A stretch of DNA of 64,000 nt from Escherichia coli (GTDB lineage Bacteria > Pseudomonadota > Gammaproteobacteria > Enterobacterales > Enterobacteriaceae), in the NCBI RefSeq assembly GCF_003019035.1, contig NZ_CP027447.1; one strand, 5' to 3'. The position numbers were made by a program, and so were the translations under genes. The notes beneath the pieces are model-generated. The model was not told the origin of the DNA. It saw nothing but the letters and a program-made list of their open reading frames with translations, and ran no database searches. Positions 39,760 to 49,133 of the stretch are shown in pieces. How positions within the stretch are numbered: position 1 is the stretch's first letter; each line of letters opens with the position of its first letter.

Positions 39760-40123
39760 GGGGCTGATTCTGGATTCGACGGGATTTGCGAAACCCAAGG
39801 TGCATGCCGAGGGGCGGTTGGCCTCGTAAAAAGCCGCAAAAAATAGTCGCAAACGACGAAAACTACGCTTTAGCAGCTTAATAACCTGCTTAGAGCCCTC
39901 TCTCCCTAGCCTCCGCTCTTAGGACGGGGATCAAGAGAGGTCAAACCCAAAAGAGATCGCGTGGAAGCCCTGCCTGGGGTTGAAGCGTTAAAACTTAATC
40001 AGGCTAGTTTGTTAGTGGCGTGTCCGTCCGCAGCTGGCAAGCGAATGTAAAGACTGACTAAGCATGTAGTACCGAGGATGTAGGAATTTCGGACGCGGGT
40101 TCAACTCCCGCCAGCTCCACCAC
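39760..40123 (+). ncRNA. ssrA: tmRNA (transfer-messenger RNA, 10Sa RNA)
   Basis: GGGGCTGATTCTGGATTCGACGGG... through the tag reading frame gcaaacgacgaaaactacgctttagcagcttaa (ANDENYALAA) to the tRNA-like 3' end GGTTCAACTCCCGCCAGCTCCACCA. Confidence 0.96.
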
Positions 40124-40156
40124 TTTTTAGTAAAATGACGTCTACTAAAGTCTACT

Positions 40157-40191
40157 AAGGCCGCATACCACAAGGGTTTGCGGCCTTTTTC
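40157..40191 (+). terminator. Rho-independent terminator downstream of ssrA, inside the island left arm
   Basis: aaggccgcataccacaagggtttgcggcc hairpin followed by ttttt. Confidence 0.75.
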
Positions 40192-40289
40192 ATGTCCAGT
40201 GAAGTCTACTGAGAATTGCTAGAAACCACTCCTTATGGCACCCTCCTATTATCCCTCGTCGATGAGGGAGTAAAAACGAGGGAGCAAAA

Positions 40290-41522
40290 ATGCCAAAGGT
40301 AGCAACAAAACTCACTGACACAGAGATCAAAAAGGCCAAGCCCACAGAGAAAGAGTTCACGCTATGGGATGGAGATGGCTTGTTCCTGCGCATCAAACCA
40401 AGTGGCAAAAAAATCTGGCACCTCGGCTATACCGTTCCATTAACCAAGAAACGGGCCAAAATGAGTCTTGGGTTCTATCCCTACCTGACACTTGCTCAAG
40501 CAAGAGCGCTACGGGATGAATACCTCTCTTTGCTTGCACAGGGTATCGATCCCCAATCCCACAATGAGCAAAAAGCCCAAGCGCTTAAAGATGCCACTGA
40601 ACACACATTCCAGACTGTAGCGAAAAAATGGCTTGATGAAAAAATTAAAACATCAGGCATATCGCAAGATCATGCTAAGGATATCTGGCGTAGCCTTGAA
40701 CGGAACATCTTTCCTACTTTAGGGGATGTTCCCATTAAAGAGATCCGCCCTAAAATGTTAAAACAACACCTTGACCCCATAGAACAAAGGGGCGTACTCG
40801 AAACCTTGCGACGTATAATTTCCCGACTTAATGAAATTTTCCGCTATGCCGCGACAGAAGAACTCATTGAGTTCAACCCCGCTGACAACCTTATCCAACG
40901 TTTTAGTAAACCCAAAAAGCAAAATATGCCTGCGTTGCCGCCAGATGAACTACCCCGTTTCATGACAGCATTATCAAACGCATCTATACGCTTAGAAACA
41001 CGTCTACTAATTGAATGGCAACTTCTTACTTGGGTTCGTCCCGGTGAAGCTGTACGCGCTCGCTGGACTGACATAGACGAAGAAAGCAAGTATTGGAACA
41101 TTCCATCCGATTTCATGAAGATGAAACGTCCTCATAAGGTTCCATTGAGCAAAGAAGCTATACGTATTCTTGAATCCATGAAACCAATCAGCGGTCATCG
41201 TGAGTGGGTTTTCCCCAGCATAAAAAATCCTTTAACACATATGCACGAGCAAACTGCCAACGCCGCATTAATCCGAATGGGCTTAGGTGGAGAACTCGTA
41301 GCACATGGCATGCGTTCTATTGCAAGAACAGCAGCAGAAGAAGCAGGAAAATTTAGGACAGAAGTTCTTGAAGCGGCTCTCGCCCACTCAAAAAAAGATG
41401 AAATCATTGCTGCTTATAACCGTACAGAATATTTAGTCGAGCGTGTCGAGTTAATGCAATGGTGGAGTGATTATCTCCAAATACAAAAATATAAGTCTTT
41501 AACAACTCTGATCGCCAGCTAA
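40290..41522 (+). CDS. P4-type (IntA/SlpA-like) tyrosine site-specific integrase
   Basis: 410 aa; N-terminal arm-binding region (KLTDTEIKKAKP...LWDGDGLFLRIKPSGKKIW) and C-terminal catalytic region with R...HxxR...Y context (VAHGMRSIARTAA...LAHS...AYNRTEY); located directly after ssrA. Confidence 0.92.
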   Translation: MPKVATKLTDTEIKKAKPTEKEFTLWDGDGLFLRIKPSGKKIWHLGYTVPLTKKRAKMSLGFYPYLTLAQARALRDEYLSLLAQGIDPQSHNEQKAQALKDATEHTFQTVAKKWLDEKIKTSGISQDHAKDIWRSLERNIFPTLGDVPIKEIRPKMLKQHLDPIEQRGVLETLRRIISRLNEIFRYAATEELIEFNPADNLIQRFSKPKKQNMPALPPDELPRFMTALSNASIRLETRLLIEWQLLTWVRPGEAVRARWTDIDEESKYWNIPSDFMKMKRPHKVPLSKEAIRILESMKPISGHREWVFPSIKNPLTHMHEQTANAALIRMGLGGELVAHGMRSIARTAAEEAGKFRTEVLEAALAHSKKDEIIAAYNRTEYLVERVELMQWWSDYLQIQKYKSLTTLIAS

Positions 41523-41679
41523 TCCTACAATCAACCCAATATCAGAAGCTGGCTTTAGTAGGGATACTTCCATTTTTCTGATATTGTATTACCATGTAGC
41601 TGAAAGTCAGATACCAAGTAGAAAAACACATTTTTATGTATGCTTTATCGAATAAAACATTAACCAAATAGGGGGACTA

Positions 41680-42399
41680 ATGGAAGATTTAGTTTGTAGT
41701 TGGTCACCAAAGCTGATCGTTGATCTTATAAAAAGTATCGCTTGGCCAGTAGTCGTCCTTCTCATCGGCTTCAGTTTTCGAACTCGAATTTTTGAAGTGG
41801 CACGTTCATTTTTTTCTAAAAACACAGTTTCAGAAATATCAGCTACAGTATCAGGTGTATCGGCAAAATTTGTGACAGCAAAGCAAACAACTGAAGTATT
41901 AGAAAGTGCTAGTACCAATGCAGCGAATTTACCAAAGAGTATGAGTATTGAGGCTATAAGAGCGCGACATGAACAGCATAAAACAGAATTCAGCGAAGAG
42001 TTATATCAATCAATAATTAAACATGCTTCCTCTTTAGATATTAATAATGATGAAAAAGTCAAAATTCTGGCACGTGAATTGTCTATTTATCAAGCTATAA
42101 TACGATATATTGACATTAATAAGATATTATTTCGCTCACAATACAATTTATTTTGTTCTATAAATAGTAATGGTGGTCAAATAAATAAAGAAGACGCCAA
42201 TCTTTTTTTTGAGGCGACCAAGAACAACAATAAAGAAGCATTCTCCGATTGGGATTGGATTAAATATATTGCCTATCCTGTTAGTAATAGCCTTATCTAT
42301 GAAGATAATAATTTTTATAAACTTACAGAGTTGGGAAGATCGTATATAGCTTTTATGTCAAAAAATCCACAACTAATCGACGAACTTGCAAAATTATAG
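41680..42399 (+). CDS. Hypothetical membrane-anchored protein (N-terminal TM helix), island cargo
   Basis: 239-aa ORF with aggggga RBS; hydrophobic segment IAWPVVVLLIGFSF; AT-rich codon usage; no recognisable family. Confidence 0.6.
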   Translation: MEDLVCSWSPKLIVDLIKSIAWPVVVLLIGFSFRTRIFEVARSFFSKNTVSEISATVSGVSAKFVTAKQTTEVLESASTNAANLPKSMSIEAIRARHEQHKTEFSEELYQSIIKHASSLDINNDEKVKILARELSIYQAIIRYIDINKILFRSQYNLFCSINSNGGQINKEDANLFFEATKNNNKEAFSDWDWIKYIAYPVSNSLIYEDNNFYKLTELGRSYIAFMSKNPQLIDELAKL

Positions 42400-42629
42400 T
42401 AGGGAATAATATTAAACCCTACTCAATGACTGTTTCAGATCTTGGTTCTGTATCCCATAAATGATCAGGTAAAGTCTAAGCGAATAGCGTTTAACAGGTG
42501 GGATGACTCACTACGTGAACCACCCACCTATAAAAAGGGTTTTTCTTCTGGTGAGTTGTCAATAAAAATGAAGGTTTCCACCTTTCATGCGGACCCTCCT
42601 TAATTTTTTTTGACAAGTTGAGATCGAGA

Positions 42630-43082
42630 CTATTTATCATTACGTTTTTTCATAAAATATTTATAACGTTCATCAGCTTCTTTTTGAAACTTTTCAGCGT
42701 CAAACGTATCAGTTTCTATTTTTATTTTTTGTTTTACCGCTTCATCTAATCTTTTATTTTCTTTCAATCTTTCTTTTTCTACTAATATAAGTTTATAGTA
42801 TTTTAGCTTAATATTAAAACTTGCTTTTGCTAACTCCTTAGCGTCAAAACCTATATTGTATTTTTTAAGAAGTTTCAATATATAATCTATAGTCATTTTT
42901 TTCACTTCCTTTTTTATTTTTTCTTCATGCGCATCTTTTTTTATACTCCCACTTTTTAACCATTGCTTAAATTTATAGCCATTATAATGCTGCCATTGAT
43001 ATATTTCAGCGGCATACATCACCGACAACATACAAACAATAAAAAATACAACCATAAAAACCACACATATTAAATAATACAT
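42630..43082 (-). CDS. Hypothetical membrane-anchored Lys/Glu-rich protein, gene 6
   Basis: 150 aa; N-terminal TM LICVVFMVVFFIVCMLSVMYAA then a charged helical region. Confidence 0.55.
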   Translation of the reverse strand: MYYLICVVFMVVFFIVCMLSVMYAAEIYQWQHYNGYKFKQWLKSGSIKKDAHEEKIKKEVKKMTIDYILKLLKKYNIGFDAKELAKASFNIKLKYYKLILVEKERLKENKRLDEAVKQKIKIETDTFDAEKFQKEADERYKYFMKKRNDK

Positions 43083-43083
43083 A

Positions 43084-43320
43084 TCAGCCCCCGCCTTTCC
43101 TTCTATATTGTTCTTTTATTAATGCTACGTGATATTTTTTTGCGTTGCTTATACTTACATCAGCAGAGTTTCTAGCAGAAGCAAAAGCACTTGAAACAAC
43201 AGAAGCAATAATGGCAACTAAGAAAGCAGCAACAAAAAAACCCATCACTGGCCCCATAAAACTAGCCCCACCGTCATCTATTGCTGGTTTTGCTTTTGCT
43301 AATAATGATAATAGGCTCAT
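43084..43320 (-). CDS. Hypothetical small membrane protein (single TM), gene 5
   Basis: 78 aa; hydrophobic core GPVMGFFVAAFLVAIIASVVSSAF followed by a basic tail. Confidence 0.55.
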   Translation of the reverse strand: MSLLSLLAKAKPAIDDGGASFMGPVMGFFVAAFLVAIIASVVSSAFASARNSADVSISNAKKYHVALIKEQYRRKGGG

Positions 43321-43730
43321 ATATTTCTCTCTTCTTCAATGTTTTTAATCGCTGTTTCTATTCTTTGTTTTACAAAGTCTCTAAACACATAACCTATTAT
43401 TCGCGCGTCTTCACATATATCTAACTCATCTTTTTTATGAAAATATAAATCAGCGCTTAAAAGCTCTTCGCTTTGAATATTTAACATTTTACTAGCAAGT
43501 GATATTCTAATAATATTTCGCACTTCTAAATCCAAGCTTGCTCTATCATGCTTATTCAAAAGCTGGAGCGGATGAAAATCTTTTTTTCTTTTCATTTCTT
43601 GCATATCATTATCAAAATCTATCATTAAAAAATGTAAGCAAGTAAAAGACGTATCATAGAAGTTTAAGCGGTTCATCATATCCGCCGTTCCCTCTTTTCG
43701 AGGGTTCGGGTTAGGTCTTAATTTATTCAT
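43317..43730 (-). CDS. Hypothetical protein, gene 4
   Basis: 137 aa; overlaps gene 3 by 8 bp and gene 5 by 4 bp. Confidence 0.55.
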   Translation of the reverse strand: MNKLRPNPNPRKEGTADMMNRLNFYDTSFTCLHFLMIDFDNDMQEMKRKKDFHPLQLLNKHDRASLDLEVRNIIRISLASKMLNIQSEELLSADLYFHKKDELDICEDARIIGYVFRDFVKQRIETAIKNIEEERNI

Positions 43731-44064
43731 CTGCTTTACTCCTTTTCTTGTTGTTTTTTAGCTTCCATTCATTCAATCTTTTATCGCCTTCAACTTTTAA
43801 GAACTCACGCTGATCGTGTATTCTTTTCAGTATTAGATTATTAGTTAACGCTCCTACTAACAAAGAAATATCATTCGCAAAATCTAATGTCTCGATGTTA
43901 TTTTCTCTAACTATTCTTATTAGTTCAGCGCCGGCTTTTATTTTACGTGTCGTATCTTTTTTCCTTTCTTCTGCCTTCATTTCTTGCTCCATTCTATTCA
44001 ATAAGTTTGCTCTTTGCTCAATTTCTTTTTTTAATTTATTATATTTTTCTATATTAAACGCCAT
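43723..44064 (-). CDS. Hypothetical basic coiled-coil protein, gene 3
   Basis: 113 aa, Lys/Glu-rich heptad-like N-terminus (EKYNKLKKEIEQRANLLNRMEQEMKAEERKK). Confidence 0.55.
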   Translation of the reverse strand: MAFNIEKYNKLKKEIEQRANLLNRMEQEMKAEERKKDTTRKIKAGAELIRIVRENNIETLDFANDISLLVGALTNNLILKRIHDQREFLKVEGDKRLNEWKLKNNKKRSKADE

Positions 44065-44383
44065 TTTCTGAACCTCTCTTTTCTTTTATCGTAATAAAAA
44101 AGGCAATCAACCCACTGATCAATAAAATTGGTAAAGTTAAAATAAACCCTACCAATAACACTAATGAAAATCCGAGCACGCCGGACATCTCATATAGATT
44201 TCCGAACAATGTGCTTTCGTTTTTATACTCAACCATATTCTGTAAAACAGACCTTTTTTCAATATCTTTTTCTTTTAAAGAATCTTCTCTATATTCATAA
44301 TCTTCACAACTCAAAGAAATTTCCACAGTGTTATCATTCAAATACTCATTATCATAATAGTCGTAATCATTATTCCCAATCAT
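44054..44383 (-). CDS. Hypothetical membrane protein (acidic Tyr/Asp-rich N-terminus, C-terminal TM segment), gene 2
   Basis: 109 aa; hydrophobic stretch GVLGFSLVLLVGFILTLPILLISGLIAFFITI; translationally coupled to neighbours. Confidence 0.55.
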   Translation of the reverse strand: MIGNNDYDYYDNEYLNDNTVEISLSCEDYEYREDSLKEKDIEKRSVLQNMVEYKNESTLFGNLYEMSGVLGFSLVLLVGFILTLPILLISGLIAFFITIKEKRGSENGV

Positions 44384-44565
44384 TCTAGATCTCCTTCTAA
44401 CGTGTCATAAACAACAGTAAAATCATTCTCATGAGAAAGAAGATTGTAAGTTATAAATAAGCTTGTCCTATAAACAATATCTGTATTTTCATCCTGTAGT
44501 TTTTGAATAATCAACTTAACAAGATCAGACGCTGCCACTTCAATTTTTTTATCAATATCATTCAT
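44380..44565 (-). CDS. Hypothetical small acidic protein, gene 1 of the six-gene island operon
   Basis: 61 aa; agagg-type RBS; stop overlaps the next gene start by 4 bp. Confidence 0.5.
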   Translation of the reverse strand: MNDIDKKIEVAASDLVKLIIQKLQDENTDIVYRTSLFITYNLLSHENDFTVVYDTLEGDLE

Positions 44566-44737
44566 GTTCCACCTCTTTTATTTTTTATGATTTCTGTTAT
44601 ATATATTAAGTAATATAATTATTTATTTAAGTAAAGCGCGATATATATTTTTTTGTTTTTAGAACGCATTTTTCAGATAAAAGGCTCACGTGCGGCGGCT
44701 ATTTTAGTTTTGCTAAAAACTACAATAGCGCACTTAT

Positions 44738-44761
44738 ACATTCTTCGAATGTGTGCGCCCC
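44738..44761 (+). promoter_or_regulatory. Candidate origin of transfer (oriT) with MobQ-type nick motif
   Basis: Inverted repeat acattc-ttc-gaatgt immediately followed by GTGCGCCCC, resembling the recalled RSF1010 oriT nick region (IR + TAAGTGCG/CCCT); lies about 115 bp upstream of the relaxase gene. Confidence 0.55.
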
Positions 44762-44874
44762 ATAAATGGGGGTTTACTAACGCAGAAAAATAAAAAGTAA
44801 TATTCGCTTTATGCTCAATATTACTTAATCGCTTTTCAAAAAAGCAAATATATTTTTATTATTTTAAAAAGTAT

Positions 44875-46203
44875 GTGTTTCAATATCAGGAGATAAAAAC
44901 AATGGCAATATTTCATATGAGCGCTCAAACAATAACACGCAGCAAGGGGTATAGTAGCGTAGCTGCGGCAGCTTATCGCCACGGCGAAAAGTTAACGGAC
45001 GAACACACAGGAGAGATCCACGACTACAGCAAAAAGAAAGGTGTTTCAGACAGTGTTATATTAATACCTGAAAGCGCAGACCGTAATTTTTTAAAGCCTG
45101 CGTATTTATGGAACATGATAGAAAAAAGCGAAAAAAGAAAAGATGCGCAGTTAGCTCGCGAGTTTAATATTGCGCTTCCTGTCGAAATGACAGATGAACA
45201 AAAAAAGGCGTTAGCAATAGATTTTTGCCAAGAGCATTTTGTAAAAAATGGAATGATTGCTGATATAGCTTTTCACAAGCTCGATAGCGACAACCCACAT
45301 TTTCATGTAATGCTAACCACCCGCAGCCTTACGCCGGACGGTTCAGAGTTCGGACATAAAGTCAGGGAATGGAACAACAAAGAGCAGCTCGAAGGCTGGC
45401 GCAAGAGCTGGGCTGACACAGCGAACGAGCACATGCAAAAGGCTGGCATCGATGCGCATATAGATCACAGATCACTGAAAGAACAAAAAGCAGAGCTTGA
45501 CGCTATCCTCCCCCCTCTCAGAACGATTGAGCAAGAGGCGCAGGCTATCAGCTTAGACAGACCGCCGACTATCCATAGAGGCCATAGCCGCAATCCAGAG
45601 CGACAAGCACGCTTTGACGTGCTCCAAGAAGTGAAAGTATCACAAGAGGAAAAAGCACTTAACCACATTGAACAGAAACAACTTAAGCCCTCGCCGCTGG
45701 CTCCAGCTTCCTCCCCTGCCGCATCTTTGCAAGATGCTACACAAGGAGGCAATGAAAACAACCCGCAAAATAGACTCGGCGAAGTTGGCGAATATCTTCA
45801 ATCTAAACTCAATAAAGAAGATAAAGCAGATCTTAATACTGATAATGAAATCAAAGTTCACACTACTAAAAATAATAGGGAAAGCAGTTCAGCAGCAGCT
45901 ATAGGTTCAACATCAAATATTAATTTAACCGATGAGAAAACAGATAAGAATCTACACTTAACAGAAGCACAAAAAGAAGAGTTAGAGGATTTAGAAAATA
46001 AAGAAGCAGCAGCGAAGAAAAAAGCTTATCTGATGAGCGGAGCTGCCGTTCCTGAACTTTCTCAAGATTACAAAACACTGTCAAAAAGTGAGTTTAAAAA
46101 TAAGCTTCATACAGCTAAACAATCAATATCATTAACTGAAAAGAGATTTAATGAAGAATGTGAAGCATATGATAACAGAAGAAAACGACCAATACCGCGC
46201 TAA
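44875..46203 (+). CDS. MobA/MobL-family (MobQ-type) conjugative relaxase, relaxase domain only
   Basis: N-terminus MAIFHMSAQTITRSKGYSSVAAAAYRHGEKL aligns with RSF1010 MobA MAIYHLTAKTGSRSGG...ADYIQREGKY (catalytic Tyr region); HFHVMLTTR matches the His motif HCHLMISER; C-terminal half is low-complexity Lys/Glu/Ser-rich with no primase domain. Confidence 0.85.
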   Translation: MFQYQEIKTMAIFHMSAQTITRSKGYSSVAAAAYRHGEKLTDEHTGEIHDYSKKKGVSDSVILIPESADRNFLKPAYLWNMIEKSEKRKDAQLAREFNIALPVEMTDEQKKALAIDFCQEHFVKNGMIADIAFHKLDSDNPHFHVMLTTRSLTPDGSEFGHKVREWNNKEQLEGWRKSWADTANEHMQKAGIDAHIDHRSLKEQKAELDAILPPLRTIEQEAQAISLDRPPTIHRGHSRNPERQARFDVLQEVKVSQEEKALNHIEQKQLKPSPLAPASSPAASLQDATQGGNENNPQNRLGEVGEYLQSKLNKEDKADLNTDNEIKVHTTKNNRESSSAAAIGSTSNINLTDEKTDKNLHLTEAQKEELEDLENKEAAAKKKAYLMSGAAVPELSQDYKTLSKSEFKNKLHTAKQSISLTEKRFNEECEAYDNRRKRPIPR

Positions 46204-46563
46204 GTATTTTGCTCATTTTTTATCCCCAATGAATGACTTAGCGTTATATTTACTTTAACTAATTGATACTATTGATTTATTTTCACCTCACGTCGTATCG
46301 TTTATATCGATCAAAATCGACAAAGTGATAGTTAACACCTATCACAACCAATTCATCGATCGATTAAAACAATTAATACACCGATCGATAAACGAGATTT
46401 AATCGTTAAAAACTATCAATATTAAATAATTGATCTGTTATAACGATCATTTTGCTTGAGAGTAGCCCTCCTCATGGTATGCTCGGAGCGTGGAAGACCG
46501 GGCTACTCACCTTGATATCTTCTTGATTAAGCAAAACTATCGCTCTATGAGGAATGAAATTTT

Positions 46564-47058
46564 ATGAAAACCGAAAACATTATTTTTCTTGTTTGGGCAG
46601 TGATTTTTATCCTGATTCTCTGCCAACTTTTTTATTTTGGCCCTAAAAAAAGAAGATACCTCAATACTTATATAGAGGTATTAGATGGTGATGTCCTCTC
46701 ATATGAATGTCAAAATACCGGCGTAGTTATTGATACTAAAAAAAACACAGTACGTATTTTCAATACATATAAGGACAGCACTTTCAAATACGACAACATC
46801 AGGGAAATAAATTATACGCTATCCGAAGCCGGAAAAATTTATAGCACAAGTAATAATCTAAACTCTATGATAAAGTCCGCTGGAGCTAACAGTAATGAAC
46901 AAATGTTAGCTAATCAGCGTTCCGGTATTTTTATACTGACAGATGATATAAAAAATCCTTCATGGAAAATCAATCTACCAATGAAAAACAAAACATCATC
47001 TACCAATCAGGAGATCTGCGATCGATGGCTTCTCATTTTTAAAAAATACGTTTTATAA
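46564..47058 (+). CDS. Hypothetical membrane-anchored protein
   Basis: 164 aa; gagga RBS; N-terminal TM IIFLVWAVIFILILCQLFYF. Confidence 0.55.
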   Translation: MKTENIIFLVWAVIFILILCQLFYFGPKKRRYLNTYIEVLDGDVLSYECQNTGVVIDTKKNTVRIFNTYKDSTFKYDNIREINYTLSEAGKIYSTSNNLNSMIKSAGANSNEQMLANQRSGIFILTDDIKNPSWKINLPMKNKTSSTNQEICDRWLLIFKKYVL

Positions 47059-47090
47059 CTTTGTTTTTTATTTTTATCTTTGGAGTTGAC

Positions 47091-47468
47091 ATGAAAAAAT
47101 TGATTGCGGCAGCATTTATTATTCTCCCTTTAGCAAGTTGTACTGTTTATGGAAACAAATCCATTAAAGACGAAACGCAGCAAAATATAGCCTCTAAAAT
47201 TATAAAAGGTAAAACTACTCAAAAAGATATCCTTCAACTTTATGGAGAACCTCAGACTAAAGAAACTAACGATGGTAAAGAAATGTGGGGATATTCCGTT
47301 ATGTCCGGTGAATCTCAGATTTCAAATTACATACCGGGATTAGCGTTATTGAAGAATAGCAGCACAGCGCACATGAAAGAACTTGAGATCTTGTTTAAAG
47401 GTGATGTAGTTGAACGCTATACCTTTAGACAAACGGCAAGCAAAGCTTCTCGCGGGTTGTTAGATTAA
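47091..47468 (+). CDS. Hypothetical lipoprotein (possible SmpA/OmlA-like fold)
   Basis: Start at MKKLIAAAFIILPLASC (lipobox LASC) preceded by ggag RBS; about 125 aa; weak pattern similarity to BamE-type lipoproteins (Q..L..YG.P.....W.Y). Confidence 0.55.
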   Translation: MKKLIAAAFIILPLASCTVYGNKSIKDETQQNIASKIIKGKTTQKDILQLYGEPQTKETNDGKEMWGYSVMSGESQISNYIPGLALLKNSSTAHMKELEILFKGDVVERYTFRQTASKASRGLLD

Positions 47469-47730
47469 TTTAAATTAAATACCATTTTATCTTTAAAAAG
47501 AAGTTGGAATAGTCCGACTTCTTTTCTATTTTATCAATAACATGCATTATTTATATTAGTGCCTTATGAAATGGCACCTTACTTTTTATATTTCCCTATC
47601 TGGGGGTTTAACCTTTGTTTTTTATTAAAAAAAATTTTGTACTAGTAGTACTAATTAATTAATTTAAAAATTTTTGGTTTTAAGGTTTTGGGGTTTGTGT
47701 TTTAGCGGGGCGGCTTTCAGCCGTAGTAGT

Positions 47731-47760
47731 TTTCCTCCGAAGGAGGAAATAGTTTTTCTT
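47731..47760. terminator. Perfect palindrome followed by T-run (terminator-like) in the island non-coding region
   Basis: tttcctccgaaggaggaaa followed by tagtttttcttt. Confidence 0.5.
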
Positions 47761-48087
47761 TAAGCATTCCCCCCCTACCCCCCACGCCAAAAAGGCTAAA
47801 AAAGAGAGATAGGAGATGCTCATTGCGTCTTGAAAATATTCAGAACGTTTCCATTCTGATACTTCCCCCACGACCCACGCAAACACAAATCATGAAACTT
47901 TCAAACAACTCTCGTTTTACTAAAGAGTCTATGCTACTGTTTGTAAATTTTTTAGATTGTGCGATTCAGGTTGGCAGCTACGCATATCCCGGTTAACCGC
48001 TGCCGCAATATTCTAAGTTTCACCAAACACTCGATGTCCTTCGTACTTAGACCTTGATACAACAAGGGTAATATTATATTGCTTTTG

Positions 48088-48223
48088 TAGATTAAATGTT
48101 TCTGGAAATGGTATTGACATTTTATCTATGTCAAAGTCGGCGAAATTTGTTTAATCATGCAGATTAGAGGCTTCTGGAAGTGGTATTTAATATTAGTTAA
48201 AAGTCGACGAAGCATTTCTAATC
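48088..48223. repeat. Tandem imperfect direct repeat of about 66-70 bp (two copies)
   Basis: Copy 1 gtagattaaatgtttctggaaatggtattgacatt...gtcaaagtcggcgaaatttgtttaatc and copy 2 gcagattagaggcttctggaagtggtatttaatatt...aaaagtcgacgaagcatttctaatc align by eye with several mismatches and a short gap. Confidence 0.6.
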
Positions 48224-48469
48224 TTTTGTATCTTTATATTATATAAATCTATATATAACACCAGTCAATAGATGAAATCAAAAATATTTTAAAAACATGA
48301 CTAGATGAAAAACAAAAAAAGACCAGATTAAACCCCAGTCTCTTTTTTACTTAATATCAGTTATGTTTTTCATATATAGTTCTAAAACGCTCTGTACGCG
48401 ATTTTGAGACGTTTTACACTGGAAGCGGCGTAATCATATAAATAATAAAATAGAATACTGTAATGATTT

Positions 48470-48673
48470 TTATGCCGCTTGATTACGCGAATAAAAAATC
48501 TTATCATCAATCCATTCGTCAACTTCACTTTCAACAAATGCGATAGTTCTTTCACCAGTCTTGATCGGAGAAGGGAAATCACCCCGGCTAATCAGCCGAT
48601 AGATCCACGCTTTACAAAAACCAGTCTTGTTTAACACTTCGGGTATGCGGATAAGTCTTTTTCTTTCGTTCAT
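48470..48673 (-). CDS. AlpA-family (HTH_17, excisionase-like) transcriptional regulator
   Basis: MNERKRLIRIPEVLNKTGFCKAWIYRLISRGDFPSPIKTGERTIAFVESEVDEWI matches the AlpA/prophage CP4-57 regulator pattern; start chosen at the Met preceded by a gagga RBS (ORF track starts 4 codons upstream). Confidence 0.8.
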   Translation of the reverse strand: MNERKRLIRIPEVLNKTGFCKAWIYRLISRGDFPSPIKTGERTIAFVESEVDEWIDDKIFYSRNQAA

Positions 48674-49133
48674 ATATTTCCTCATAGTTGTTTTGATGAG
48701 GCTATTATTCGAATATCGCTTATGACGATCAACAACTTTTTTAGCAAAAAGTGCTTTTTTAGTTGACTATTTTAAATTAACAGTCATTTAATCACCTTTG
48801 GAAGTTGAACTCATGAGTTCAACTCCTCACCGCTAGTCATGACATTCAAAATGTGCTTATTTTTTAGCCACAATACTTTTTTTATCCCTTTATTGCACCT
48901 CAATGTAAAATACAAATAATTAATATATTTAATAATCAAATGATTAAAGAGTCGATTACAGGGACGCCAGCCAATCATGATTGGACGGTGTAAGGACAAC
49001 ACTAATAAAAACAGGAAGTTAGCAGTCTCAGCAGGACACCGACCAGACGGTGAGGAGACATAAAAGGATACGCAAAGGAGCCGCGGCCCCTGGTGATATG
49101 AAAGCCCACAGATGTGGGCTTTTTCGTTGATGG

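What the first reader, a model, noticed from the sequence alone, without database searches (positions are those of the whole stretch)
46204..46563. Iteron-like repeat-dense intergenic region downstream of the relaxase gene
The 360-bp non-coding stretch carries at least five degenerate copies of a CGATCGAT/ATCGA(T/C)-AAAA(C) motif (for example atcgatcaaaatcgac, tcatcgatcgattaaaac, caccgatcgataaacg, taatcgttaaaaac, ataacgatcatttt) and a palindrome tgatagttaacacctatca. Such motif arrays are typical of replication origins (iterons) or of multi-site operators, which raises the question of whether the element can replicate after excision or how the downstream envelope genes are controlled.
Basis: seen in the sequence. 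Interest (0 to 1): 0.5.

Follow-up and report, generated by a model that had tools for sequence, protein, structure and literature searches.

The report
Dam/OxyR-type epigenetic switch, not iterons
The repeat-rich spacer after the relaxase gene is most likely a DNA-methylation (Dam) plus OxyR on/off switch for the two downstream envelope-protein genes, of the kind known from Salmonella opvAB and phage P22 gtr, and not a replication origin.

Summary

The repeat unit is not an iteron. It is a 15-bp dyad, ATMGnTnnnAnCKAT, which is the OxyR (LysR-type) half-site consensus. There are five good copies, starting at 46297, 46328, 46359, 46402 and 46433, spaced 31/31/43/31 bp. Five GATC (Dam) sites lie in or beside them.

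Half-sites B, C, E and F with GATC1-4 reproduce the published geometry of the Salmonella opvAB switch to within 1-2 bp. Sites A-B-C reproduce the P22 gtr triple. Site A is identical to the OxyR/Dam 15-mer of E. coli agn43.

The 200-bp core (46254-46452) is conserved in 47 sequences: the window, five E. coli loci, one Yersinia record and 40 genome loci across Enterobacterales. It is also present in 593 of 5426 complete E. coli genomes, inside ROD21-like islands and ICEs. Only the consensus 'n' positions vary. A positionally conserved promoter follows site F.

The oriT lies elsewhere, upstream of mobQ. No Rep gene, regularly spaced direct-repeat (iteron) array, conserved DnaA box or plasmid-borne copy was found.

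Verdict: a new member of a known kind. The operator reading is supported and the origin reading is not. OxyR binding and bistable expression are inferred, not shown.

The parts
44738..44761 (+). Context: candidate MOBQ oriT. It is the inverted repeat ACATTC-TTC-GAATGT followed by the nick-like GTGCGCCCC, about 140 bp upstream of mobQ.
   Evidence: Sequence. A homologous inverted-repeat-plus-G-rich block lies at the same place upstream of mobQ in the ICE and island relatives (alignment A3). The similarity to the RSF1010/pTi nick region (YGCGCCCT) is from my own knowledge.
44902..46203 (+). Context: mobQ relaxase gene (MobA/MobL domain).
   Evidence: Pfam PF03389, E 2e-63. RefSeq annotates it as 'MobQ family relaxase' in the near-identical SCU-301 island.
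46254..46276 (.). Conserved block Z (family consensus TTTAACCAATTGATAGGATT). It matches the IHF consensus WATCAANNNNTTR on the minus strand at 46256-46268. It also scores weakly (8/10) as a dyad site at 46262.
   Evidence: Almost every position is conserved in the 47 sequences, unlike the n-variable dyad sites. The IHF role is inference.
46297..46311 (.). Half-site A, ATCGTTTATATCGAT. GATC1 (46309-46312) sits at its right end.
   Evidence: Scores 10/10 on the degenerate consensus and 8/10 on the strict OxyR consensus. Identical 15-mer to the agn43 regulatory site of E. coli K-12 (L064 position 838). A at position 10 is invariant in 47/47 relatives although the search pattern did not force it.
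46328..46342 (.). Half-site B, ATAGTTAACACCTAT.
   Evidence: Scores 10/10 on the strict consensus ATAGnTnnnAnCTAT. Within the 7-nt spacer only T6 (39/47) and A10 (40/47) are conserved. It starts 31 bp after A in 39 of the 47 sequences.
46359..46373 (.). Half-site C, ATCGATTAAAACAAT. GATC2 (46358-46361) overlaps its left end.
   Evidence: Scores 9/10 degenerate and 8/10 strict. None of its columns was forced by the search pattern, yet ATCG, T6, A10 and CAAT are conserved in 43-47 of 47. B to C is 31 bp in 44/47.
46381..46389 (.). Conserved CCGATCGAT block (D') carrying GATC3 (46383-46386). Only the left half resembles a half-site.
   Evidence: GATC3 lies 24.5 bp (centre to centre) upstream of site E, the same offset as GATC1 to site B and as opvAB GATC1/3 to OBSA/C (PMC4856963).
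46402..46416 (.). Half-site E, ATCGTTAAAAACTAT, without GATC.
   Evidence: Scores 10/10 degenerate and 9/10 strict. Conserved at the consensus positions only. C to E is 42-44 bp, about four helical turns.
46433..46447 (.). Half-site F, ATCTGTTATAACGAT. GATC4 (46432-46435) and GATC5 (46445-46448) sit at its two ends, 13 bp apart.
   Evidence: Scores 9/10 degenerate and 7/10 strict. E to F is 31 bp in 38/47. The 13-bp GATC pair matches the outer half-sites of P22 gtr (PMC2909390).
46456..46483 (+). Predicted sigma-70 promoter: TTGAGA, 16 nt, TATGCT, with TG upstream of the -10. It would start transcription near 46490 and read into the DUF4755 gene.
   Evidence: Consensus scan. The same promoter is predicted at the same offset in ICE locus L003. 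A TTGnnn about 9 nt after F and a TAnnnT 16-17 nt later recur in most relatives even though the sequence between them differs. No transcription start site has been measured.
46460..46508 (+). 9-bp inverted repeat GAGTAGCCC / GGGCTACTC overlapping the promoter and 5' UTR. It is specific to this island subfamily.
   Evidence: It is broken without compensation in the 90%-identical PigCaeca_1 island and absent from other relatives.
46564..47058 (+). Predicted controlled gene 1: a DUF4755 protein with an N-terminal hydrophobic helix (homologue of the gene between SEN1982 and SEN1984 in ROD21-like islands).
   Evidence: Pfam PF15947, E 1e-11. 57% identical to the Nissle 1917 island homologue, which sits at the same position after the core.
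47091..47468 (+). Predicted controlled gene 2: a lipoprotein of the SEN1984 family (lipobox LPLASC).
   Evidence: Translation. tblastn gives 68-76% identity to the gene after the core in the ROD21-like relatives that carry it, and 38-49% in the MOBP-type elements L023 and L044. RefSeq name 'SEN1984 family lipoprotein'. PHROG 3135, E 1e-28.

Best explanation
The region is the upstream control region of the DUF4755-lipoprotein operon of a small mobilizable island inserted at ssrA. It is built as a Dam/OxyR-type epigenetic phase-variation switch.

What the sequence shows:
- There are five in-phase 15-bp dyad sites, A, B, C, E and F, that fit the OxyR half-site consensus ATAGnTnnnAnCTAT. They are spaced 31, 31, 43 and 31 bp, that is 3, 3, 4 and 3 helical turns.
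- Sites B and E fit the consensus best and lack GATC.
- Sites A, C and F are weaker and carry GATC at an end.
- GATC1 and GATC3 lie 24.5 bp upstream of B and E. GATC2 and GATC4 lie 6.5 bp upstream of the centres of C and F.

Inferred mechanism, by analogy with opvAB and gtr, where it was shown experimentally:
- Host OxyR in its reduced form binds pairs of half-sites about 31 bp apart.
- OxyR and Dam exclude each other at the GATC-bearing sites, so two methylation patterns perpetuate themselves.
- In the predicted ON state, OxyR holds B-C and E-F. GATC2, 4 and 5 stay unmethylated, GATC1 and 3 are methylated, and OxyR at F (centre about -50) recruits RNA polymerase to the promoter at 46456-46483.
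- In the predicted OFF state, OxyR sits only on the strong GATC-free sites (or on A-B). C and F are methylated and the promoter is not activated.

The expected result is a mixed population in which only some cells make the two envelope proteins. In the larger relatives (ROD21-like islands and ICEs) the same core also faces a divergent lipoprotein operon (SEN1982 family) and may control it as well.
For: 1. Motif. Five sites score at least 9/10 on the dyad consensus, against 0.14 expected. They are 5 of only 13 such sites in 64 kb.

2. Identity to a known site. Site A is the same 15-mer as the agn43 OxyR/Dam site of K-12.

3. Conservation pattern. In the 47 sequences (E. coli, Yersinia, Pectobacterium, Brenneria, Dickeya, Cedecea, Enterobacter, Pluralibacter and others) positions 1-4, 6, 10 and 12-15 are conserved. 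Positions 5, 7-9 and 11 vary, as the OxyR consensus predicts. This holds in sites C, E and F, which the search pattern did not constrain.

4. Spacing. A-B is 31 bp in 39/47, B-C 31 in 44/47 and E-F 31 in 38/47. P22 gtr measures 32/32 here. The published spacing is said to fit reduced OxyR (PMC2909390).

5. opvAB geometry. Published OBS centres are -148/-116/-75/-43 with 10/8/10/7 consensus matches. Published GATC centres are -172.5/-122.5/-99.5/-49.5 (PMC4856963). Here B/C/E/F are spaced 31/43/31 with 10/8/9/7 strict matches. The GATC-to-site offsets are 24.5/6.5/24.5/6.5, identical to opvAB.

6. GATC spacing of 49/25/49(/13) is kept in about 40 of the 47 sequences.

7. A promoter is predicted right after F and is positionally conserved.

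8. The non-coding core is 76% identical to the Nissle 1917 island copy. The adjacent DUF4755 gene is 67% identical and the relaxase domain 64%.

9. The A-B-C unit alone recurs upstream of typical phase-variable genes: a fimbrial operon in E. coli CFS3292, an ORF whose product looks like a fimbrial subunit by eye in Serratia (no Pfam hit), an inverse autotransporter in Arsenophonus, and GGDEF and EAL genes.
Against: - Nothing here shows OxyR binding, differential methylation or bistable expression. All of that is inferred from sequence geometry.
- The transcription start is only predicted. If the prediction is right, site F is centred near -50, not -43 as in opvAB.
- The core holds conserved stretches that the OxyR consensus does not explain: block Z, CCGATCGAT, and flanks such as CGATCAAAA and CAATTAA. 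Other proteins must therefore also read it.
- Columns ATCGTTT, CGATC, ATAG and CTATC of sites A and B are invariant partly by construction, because they were in the pattern used to collect 40 of the 47 sequences.
- ATC-N9-GAT is also the generic LysR-type box, so another LysR-type regulator cannot be excluded.
- In this small island the leftward operon present in relatives is missing, so part of the module may be vestigial here.
Confidence: 0.68

Rival explanations
1. Replication origin: the repeats are iterons or origin elements that let the excised island replicate, using the relaxase, a helper-encoded Rep (for example the RepL-family protein of related islands) or host DnaA.
For: - The region is AT-rich and repeat-dense, with a cluster of GATC sites as in oriC or P1 oriR.
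- Two one-mismatch DnaA-box-like strings lie at 46207 and 46220.
- GATCTGTTATAAC at 46432 loosely resembles the oriC 13-mer (my own knowledge).
- A RepL-family gene lies 0.4-5 kb downstream of the core in several relatives.
Against: - The repeats are dyad-symmetric, at 31/43-bp phasing, and in a geometry that copies transcriptional switches.
- No Rep gene is in this island.
- The DnaA-like strings lie outside the conserved core and only in this subfamily.
- The same unit sits upstream of chromosomal fimbrial and adhesin genes.
- No small plasmid in PLSDB carries it: the three matches are records of 393 kb, 502 kb and 4.8 Mb filed as plasmids. All 626 E. coli copies are chromosomal.
- Deleting the RepL-family gene SEN1990 did not change ROD21 copy number or maintenance (PMC10655114).
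Confidence: 0.04
2. An operator array for a regulator other than OxyR: another LysR-type protein, an island-encoded factor such as the RepL-like winged-helix protein or the H-NS paralogue of related islands, or plain H-NS nucleation on TCGATAAATT-like sites. Dam would play no heritable role.
For: - ATC-N9-GAT is the generic LysR-type box (my own knowledge).
- Several sites resemble the H-NS high-affinity motif (TCGATTAAAA, TCGATAAACG; my own knowledge).
- Related islands encode H-NS paralogues.
- Conserved stretches outside the OxyR consensus (block Z, CCGATCGAT) need some other reader.
- SEN1990 affects the OxyR/Dam-controlled gtr/oafB operon of SPI-17 (PMC10655114).
Against: - Sites B and E carry the OxyR-specific ATAG...CTAT ends.
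- Site A equals the agn43 OxyR site.
- The site and GATC geometry matches opvAB to within 1-2 bp (PMC4856963).
- The module is kept in an island that encodes no such regulator and across many genera, which fits a core host factor.
- H-NS alone would not impose dyad sites, 31-bp phasing and invariant GATCs.
Confidence: 0.17
3. A single-strand DNA or RNA element: a leading-region ssDNA promoter or priming site (Frpo/ssi type) used after conjugative entry, or a small RNA, formed by the four local hairpins.
For: - If the nick lies in the plus strand at about 44757, the region enters the recipient early, about 1.5 kb after oriT (inference).
- The plus and minus strands fold better than shuffles (z = -3.3 and -2.8).
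- The module always sits downstream of a relaxase gene, in MOBQ and in MOBP-type elements.
Against: - The hairpins arise from self-palindromic tetranucleotides.
- Pairs that vary mostly break rather than compensate. For example 46404-46445 is CG in 29 sequences, CA in 7 and AG in 7. Pair 46406-46443 is paired in 8/47 and pair 46308-46319 in 3/47.
- No Rfam family matches.
- The same unit occurs at non-mobile chromosomal loci.
Confidence: 0.03

Closest known systems
opvAB (STM2209-STM2208) upstream activating region of Salmonella enterica
   Same: Both have four OxyR half-sites on one helical face with alternating quality, and four GATC sites in the same positions relative to them.
- Published opvAB spacing is 32/41/32 with 10/8/10/7 consensus matches. 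Here B/C/E/F are spaced 31/43/31 with 10/8/9/7.
- The GATC-to-site offsets are 24.5, 6.5, 24.5 and 6.5 bp in both.
- GATC spacing is 50/23/50 in opvAB and 49/25/49 here.
- In both, the last site is just upstream of the -35 and the target genes encode small envelope proteins in AT-rich, horizontally acquired DNA (PMC4856963, PMC3350482).
   Different: - There is an extra upstream half-site (A) and a fifth GATC at the right end of F.
- Site F is predicted at about -50 rather than -43.
- The element lies in mobile islands and ICEs, in relatives between divergent operons.
- No experimental data exist.
gtr (P22 and Salmonella genomic gtrABC) regulatory region
   Same: Both have a triple of half-sites: an outer site with GATC, a central consensus site without GATC, and an outer site with GATC. 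Spacing measured here on P22 is 32/32. Here it is 31/31. The GATC pair 13 bp apart within a half-site (site F) is as in gtr sites A and C (PMC2909390).
   Different: - In gtr, site C overlaps the -35, so OxyR(BC) represses and OxyR(AB) activates. Here the A-B-C triple is more than 100 bp from the rightward promoter, and a further pair (E-F) abuts it.
- A and C here carry one GATC each, not two.
agn43 (flu) regulatory region of E. coli
   Same: The identical 15-mer ATCGTTTATATCGAT, with GATC at the site end, is the core of the agn43 OxyR/Dam site.
   Different: agn43 has one compact OxyR site with three GATCs downstream of the promoter, where OxyR acts purely as a repressor. Here the sites form an extended upstream array.
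Iteron-type plasmid origins (for example pSC101, R6K, P1 oriR)
   Same: Repeat-dense, AT-rich, non-coding DNA with clustered GATC sites next to mobility genes.
   Different: There are no direct repeats at regular iteron spacing, no adjacent Rep gene, no conserved DnaA box and no occurrence on plasmids.

Membership tests
Dam/OxyR epigenetic phase-variation switch (opvAB / gtr / agn43 kind) | Two or more sites matching the OxyR half-site consensus ATAGnTnnnAnCTAT at 7 or more of the 10 specified positions. | tested here: met
   Strict scores are A 8, B 10, C 8, E 9 and F 7. Five sites reach 9/10 on the degenerate consensus against 0.14 expected. Relatives vary only at the n positions.
Dam/OxyR epigenetic phase-variation switch (opvAB / gtr / agn43 kind) | Half-sites spaced about 32 bp centre to centre (the extended, reduced-OxyR mode) and all on one helical face. 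| tested here: met
   Spacings are 31/31/43/31 bp. They are conserved in 38-44 of the 47 sequences. P22 gtr measures 32/32. opvAB is 32/41/32 (PMC4856963).
Dam/OxyR epigenetic phase-variation switch (opvAB / gtr / agn43 kind) | GATC sites inside or beside some half-sites but not others, so that alternative occupancy gives alternative methylation patterns. | tested here: met
   GATC is present at A, C, D' and F (twice) and absent from B and E. Offsets to B/C/E/F are 24.5/6.5/24.5/6.5 bp, as in opvAB (PMC4856963). The spacing is conserved.
Dam/OxyR epigenetic phase-variation switch (opvAB / gtr / agn43 kind) | A promoter next to or overlapping the proximal half-site. | tested here: inconclusive
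   A consensus promoter lies at 46456-46483 and is positionally conserved in most relatives. No transcription start has been measured, and the offset differs from opvAB by about 7 bp.
Dam/OxyR epigenetic phase-variation switch (opvAB / gtr / agn43 kind) | OxyR binds the region, and binding is blocked by Dam methylation. | not testable with these tools
   Needs a gel-shift or footprint assay with OxyR(C199S) on methylated and unmethylated DNA.
Dam/OxyR epigenetic phase-variation switch (opvAB / gtr / agn43 kind) | Heritable ON and OFF subpopulations with opposite GATC methylation patterns, abolished in dam and oxyR mutants. | not testable with these tools
   Needs reporter fusions and single-molecule 6mA data.
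Iteron-type replication origin | Array of direct repeats (about 17-22 bp) at regular spacing. | tested here: not met
   The repeats are 15-bp dyads at 31/43 bp. Direct-repeat families are 2-3 copies at spacings of 105, 31 and 25 bp.
Iteron-type replication origin | Cognate Rep initiator gene in the element. | tested here: not met
   No Rep family hit in Pfam for any island ORF scanned, nor in the subsets scanned against NCBIfam, PHROGs and PADLOC. No RepL remnant by tblastn.
Iteron-type replication origin | Conserved DnaA boxes or an AT-rich unwinding element, and occurrence on autonomously replicating plasmids. | tested here: not met
   DnaA-like strings occur only outside the conserved core. 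No small plasmid in PLSDB carries the region: the only three matches are records of 393 kb, 502 kb and 4.8 Mb filed as plasmids. None of the 626 E. coli places is on a plasmid.
MOBQ origin of transfer | Inverted repeat followed by a nick region next to the relaxase gene. | tested here: not met
   Such a block lies at 44738-44761, upstream of mobQ, and is homologous in relatives. Nothing comparable is in 46204-46563.
pap-type Lrp/Dam switch | Two GATC boxes 102-103 bp apart within Lrp sites, with PapI/PapB-like regulators. | tested here: not met
   Adjacent GATC sites are 49, 25, 49 and 13 bp apart, and no two sites are 102-103 bp apart. No such regulators are in the island. The defining features are from my own knowledge.
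Leading-region ssDNA promoter / priming site or structured RNA | Secondary structure maintained by compensatory changes. | tested here: not met
   Variable pairs break rather than compensate. No Rfam match.

The most novel reading that the evidence does not exclude
The switch is a device specific to mobile elements. Conjugative entry delivers one methylated strand, and its complement is made unmethylated. Every transfer would therefore open a window in which OxyR can capture the GATC-bearing sites. Transconjugants would then start in a defined (ON) state for envelope proteins that act in establishment or exclusion, and later drift to a mixed population.

In addition, the roughly 75-bp A-B-C unit may itself be a portable cassette that has been exchanged among unrelated surface-protein loci. 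These include fimbriae, inverse autotransporters, LPS modification genes, c-di-GMP enzymes, and the envelope genes of MOBQ and MOBP islands across Enterobacterales. That would explain identities at 'free' positions: site B of Proteus myxofaciens equals site B here.
Probability: 0.15. Interest if true: 0.7.

Novelty: new member of a known kind. Interest (0 to 1): 0.45.

Why it matters
If correct, a whole family of mobile islands carries an unreported epigenetic on/off switch for envelope lipoprotein genes. The family comprises the ROD21-like islands of Salmonella, the tcpC island of uropathogenic E. coli and Nissle 1917, related ICEs with type IVB transfer genes, and small mobilizable islands like this one. 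It is present in about 11% of complete E. coli genomes.

SEN1982, the lipoprotein gene on the other side of the core in ROD21, has been linked to organ colonisation (cited in PMC10655114).

Phase variation would explain heterogeneous expression of these genes. It would also add several new loci to the short list of Dam/OxyR switches. The prediction can be checked at once in existing PacBio or nanopore data from well-studied strains.

It also removes a tempting but unsupported idea, that this island has its own replication origin.

Tried and rejected
- **oriT.** Considered because the core is shared between an island and ICEs that have related relaxases. Rejected because a homologous inverted repeat with a nick-like block lies upstream of mobQ in all of them.
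- **Structured RNA or ssDNA element.** Rfam at gathering and at E-value thresholds gave nothing. RNA and DNA folds were better than shuffles, but 47 sequences give no compensatory support.
- **Small conserved ORF in the core.** A 25-codon frame in the window is stopped early in relatives (by eye on alignment A1).
- **Phage connection.** A distant BLAST against 50,697 phage records gave only chance-level matches. P22 gtr is too diverged for BLAST but matches in architecture.
- **Plasmid origin.** The only three PLSDB matches are very large 'plasmid' records that carry the chromosomal island.
- **pap/Lrp-type switch.** The spacings do not fit.
- **Function of the controlled genes and of the island's small ORFs.** Pfam, NCBIfam, PADLOC and PHROGs gave only DUF4755 and an unnamed PHROG.
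- **Exact attR repeat of the ssrA end.** None with 3 or fewer mismatches. Only a 10-mer, GTTCAACTCC, at 48817.
- **Literature.** Nothing in the searchable library describes this intergenic region of ROD21-like islands or phase variation of SEN1982-1984.
- **opvAB sequence.** It could not be fetched, so that comparison rests on coordinates printed in PMC4856963.
Full report
**Setting.** The window is E. coli chromosome: rRNA operon, Phe leader, and tmRNA at 39760-40122. Directly after ssrA lies an island of about 8.7 kb with 28-39% G+C. It carries:
- a P4-type integrase (40290-41522);
- an unknown 239-aa gene;
- six small minus-strand ORFs;
- a MobQ relaxase (44902-46203);
- the finding region;
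- a DUF4755 gene (46564-47058);
- a lipoprotein gene (47091-47468);
- an AlpA-family gene (48470-48685, minus strand).

The core gene ypjA follows. The island is an integrative mobilizable element. Only 4 of 5426 complete E. coli genomes carry this exact type.

ATCGAT occurs 4 times against 0.45 in dinucleotide-preserving shuffles (p about 4e-4). ATCG/CGAT occurs 14 times against 5.8. There are five GATC sites within 140 bp.

**Conservation.** A distant BLAST of the 360 bp found the central 200 bp (46254-46452) at 72-77% identity in 593 of 5426 E. coli genomes, always on the chromosome. These copies lie in much larger elements that carry a MobQ relaxase, TraD, type IV pilus genes with a PilV shufflon and, in several, DotA/TraY-type transfer genes. 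Examples are the Nissle 1917 tcpC island and a Yersinia element.

RefSeq names the flanking genes 'SEN1982 family' and 'SEN1984 family' lipoproteins. This places the elements in the ROD21-like (EARL) island family of Enterobacteriaceae (PMC6035254, PMC10655114).

One exact-pattern scan of 100,044 species genomes returned 56 loci from many Enterobacterales. Forty of these loci, together with the window, five E. coli loci and the Yersinia record, make 47 sequences that share the whole 200-bp core. Conservation collapses immediately after 46455.

The core is 76% identical to the Nissle copy. The adjacent DUF4755 gene is 67% identical and the relaxase domain 64% (protein identities 57% and 41-47%). 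The non-coding core is therefore under selection at least as strong as that on its neighbours. It keeps one orientation relative to mobQ and to the downstream genes.

**What the repeats are.** The low-identity loci from the scan share only a unit of about 77 bp: ATCGTTTATAnCGATC, 16 nt, ATAG-N7-CTAT, 16 nt, then GATCGnTnnnAnCGAT. This is three dyad sites of the form ATMGnTnnnAnCKAT.

That form is the OxyR half-site consensus ATAGnTnnnAnCTAT, as quoted in PMC2909390 and PMC4856963 from Toledano et al. 1994. It is also the generic LysR-type ATC-N9-GAT box (my own knowledge).

In the window there are five strong sites:

| Site | Start | Sequence | Strict score (of 10) |
|---|---|---|---|
| A | 46297 | ATCGTTTATATCGAT | 8 |
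| B | 46328 | ATAGTTAACACCTAT | 10 |
| C | 46359 | ATCGATTAAAACAAT | 8 |
| E | 46402 | ATCGTTAAAAACTAT | 9 |
| F | 46433 | ATCTGTTATAACGAT | 7 |

Five such sites in 150 bp compare with 0.14 expected from shuffles and with 8 in the other 63.8 kb of the window.

Across the 47 sequences the consensus positions are kept and the n positions vary. This includes T6 and A10 inside the spacers, and it holds in sites C, E and F, which my search pattern did not constrain. Spacings are held at 31/31/42-44/31 bp, that is 3, 3, 4 and 3 helical turns.

**Match to known switches.**
- *agn43.* I fetched the K-12 agn43 (flu) regulatory region. Its OxyR/Dam site contains the identical 15-mer of site A.
- *gtr.* I fetched the P22 gtr control region. 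It has sites ATCGGTAACAACGAT, ATAGATAAAAACTAT and ATCGCTTGTATCGAT at 32/32-bp spacing, with GATC pairs 13 bp apart. [quoted passage not shown] The window's A-B-C triple and the 13-bp GATC pair on F copy this.
- *opvAB.* PMC4856963 gives half-site centres at -148, -116, -75 and -43 (10, 8, 10 and 7 consensus matches) and GATC centres at -172.5, -122.5, -99.5 and -49.5. In the window B, C, E and F are centred at 46335, 46366, 46409 and 46440 (10, 8, 9 and 7 matches). GATC1-4 are centred at 46310.5, 46359.5, 46384.5 and 46433.5. The offsets of each GATC to its site are 24.5, 6.5, 24.5 and 6.5 bp in both systems. The inter-site distances differ by 1-2 bp. The GATC spacing 49/25/49(/13) is kept in about 40 of the 47 sequences, and one has 50/23/50 exactly as in opvAB.

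**Promoter.** The scan predicts TTGAGA-16-TATGCT, with an upstream TG, at 46456-46483. The same promoter sits at the same offset in an ICE relative. In most relatives a TTGnnn lies about 9 nt after site F and a TAnnnT 16-17 nt later, although the sequence between them differs between subfamilies. Site F would then be centred near -50. An RBS (GAGGAA, 46549-46554) and the ATG (46564) of the DUF4755 gene follow.

**Mechanism.**
- *Shown:* the site, spacing and GATC geometry and its conservation.
- *Established for opvAB, gtr and agn43* (PMC4856963, PMC2909390, PMC3350482): OxyR and Dam compete at GATC-bearing half-sites, which gives heritable alternative methylation patterns and ON and OFF lineages independent of the redox state of OxyR.
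- *Inferred here:*
  - In the ON state OxyR holds B-C and E-F. GATC2, 4 and 5 are unmethylated and GATC1 and 3 are methylated. OxyR at F recruits RNA polymerase.
  - In the OFF state OxyR sits on the strong GATC-free sites (B and E, or A-B), and C and F are methylated and unoccupied.
  - Block Z (46254-46276), which matches the IHF consensus on the minus strand, and the CCGATCGAT block point to further factors. SeqA and HU are ancillary at opvAB (PMC4856963).
  - In ROD21-like relatives the core also faces a divergent SEN1982-family lipoprotein operon, which this small island lacks.

**Wider pattern.** The A-B-C unit alone lies upstream of several kinds of gene:
- a fimbrial operon in E. coli CFS3292;
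- an ORF in Serratia whose product looks like a fimbrial subunit by eye (no Pfam hit);
- an inverse autotransporter with a lipoprotein gene in Arsenophonus;
- lipoprotein genes in Proteus;
- EAL and GGDEF genes.

In a second family of mobilizable islands it sits directly after a MobA/VirD2-type (Pfam PF03432) relaxase gene and before a membrane-protein gene; a lipoprotein-gene match follows in L023 and L044, the two loci whose sequence extends that far. These are the kinds of genes that phase-vary.

**Rivals.**
- *Origin of replication.* No Rep gene, no regularly spaced direct-repeat array, DnaA-like strings only outside the conserved core, no plasmid-borne copy, and the published finding that the RepL-family gene of ROD21 is dispensable for replication and maintenance of the excised island (PMC10655114).
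- *oriT.* It lies upstream of mobQ.
- *ssDNA or RNA element.* No covariation and no Rfam match.
- *Another regulator or H-NS.* This cannot be excluded without experiments, but it explains the geometry less well.

**Verdict.** The origin reading is not supported and the operator reading is supported. The region is best described as a previously undescribed member of the Dam/OxyR phase-variation switch family. It is borne by ROD21-like islands, ICEs and small mobilizable islands, and it awaits experimental test. I found nothing on it in the searchable literature.

Noticed in passing
window 44738-44761: Candidate MOBQ oriT: the inverted repeat ACATTC-TTC-GAATGT followed by GTGCGCCCC, about 140 bp upstream of mobQ. 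A homologous block (ACACTGC-TAC-GCAGTGT followed by GTGGGGTCTA) lies at the same place in the ROD21-like islands and ICEs. The oriT of ROD21 is described as still unidentified in PMC10655114.
   Followed up: partly
window 57112-57147: Two OxyR-like half-sites, ATAGTTATCATCGAT (10/10) and ATAGTTTGTAATGAT (9/10), lie 21 bp apart, close to the canonical compact OxyR spacing. One carries a CGAT end. They are about 330 bp upstream of an alpha-amylase-family ORF (57481-59733) and next to a tRNA gene with anticodon CAT.
   Followed up: partly
window 48715-48729: A single dyad site, ATCGCTTATGACGAT (9/10), with a GATC at its right end, lies about 30 bp upstream of the alpA start codon (48685, minus strand). 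This hints that excision control might also be sensitive to Dam or OxyR. No partner site was seen at 31 bp to either side.
   Followed up: partly
window 40123-48826: Island borders. The left end abuts the 3' end of ssrA. No repeat of the ssrA end with 3 or fewer mismatches exists downstream. Only a 10-mer, GTTCAACTCC, at 48817-48826, inside a palindrome, is found. attR is therefore degenerate and excision may be impaired.
   Followed up: partly
window 41680-42399; L002 3702-5300; L005 3482-6019; L006 3142-4947: Variable genes in these islands hold different cargo in different relatives. Next to the integrase, this island has an unknown 239-aa protein where the PigCaeca_1 island has a reverse-transcriptase-domain protein. 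Downstream of mobQ, the Nissle island has TcpC, TIR and macro-domain proteins and the RIVM island has the HEPN protein ApeA. Several of these are defence-type genes. The window's protein has no hit in Pfam, NCBIfam, PADLOC or PHROGs.
   Followed up: partly
window 47469-48469: About 1 kb without a convincing gene between the lipoprotein gene and alpA, including a G+C-rich patch near 47680-47800. Relatives carry a RepL-family gene and others in this interval. No RepL remnant was found by tblastn.
   Followed up: partly
window 46460-46508: A 9-bp perfect inverted repeat (GAGTAGCCC / GGGCTACTC, 31-nt loop) overlaps the predicted -35/-10 and the 5' UTR. It extends to an outer stem (46439-46457 / 46529-46547) and folds with z = -2.5. 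It is specific to this island subfamily and is not compensated in the 90%-identical relative.
   Followed up: partly
window 46207-46228: Two one-mismatch DnaA-box-like strings (TTTTGCTCA and TTATCCCCA) lie just after the mobQ stop codon. They are outside the conserved core and occur only in this island subfamily.
   Followed up: yes
L001 9465-9877 (E. coli SCU-301): In the 99.3%-identical island of strain SCU-301 the DUF4755 gene is annotated as split, a short CDS plus a pseudogene. The window's copy is intact (164 aa).
   Followed up: no
L032 2524-2600 (Proteus myxofaciens): Here the A-B-C unit is an almost perfect 77-bp palindrome. Its central site is identical to the window's site B at all 15 positions, including the 'free' ones. 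This suggests common descent of these cassettes rather than convergence.
   Followed up: partly
literature: PMC10655114 versus the core of the ROD21-like loci (e.g. L005 7000-7198): The RepL-family winged-helix protein of ROD21 (SEN1990) was reported to affect only the SPI-17 gtr/oafB operon, which is itself an OxyR/Dam switch. ROD21-like islands carry a similar switch a few kb from that gene. A shared binding region is conceivable but untested.
   Followed up: no
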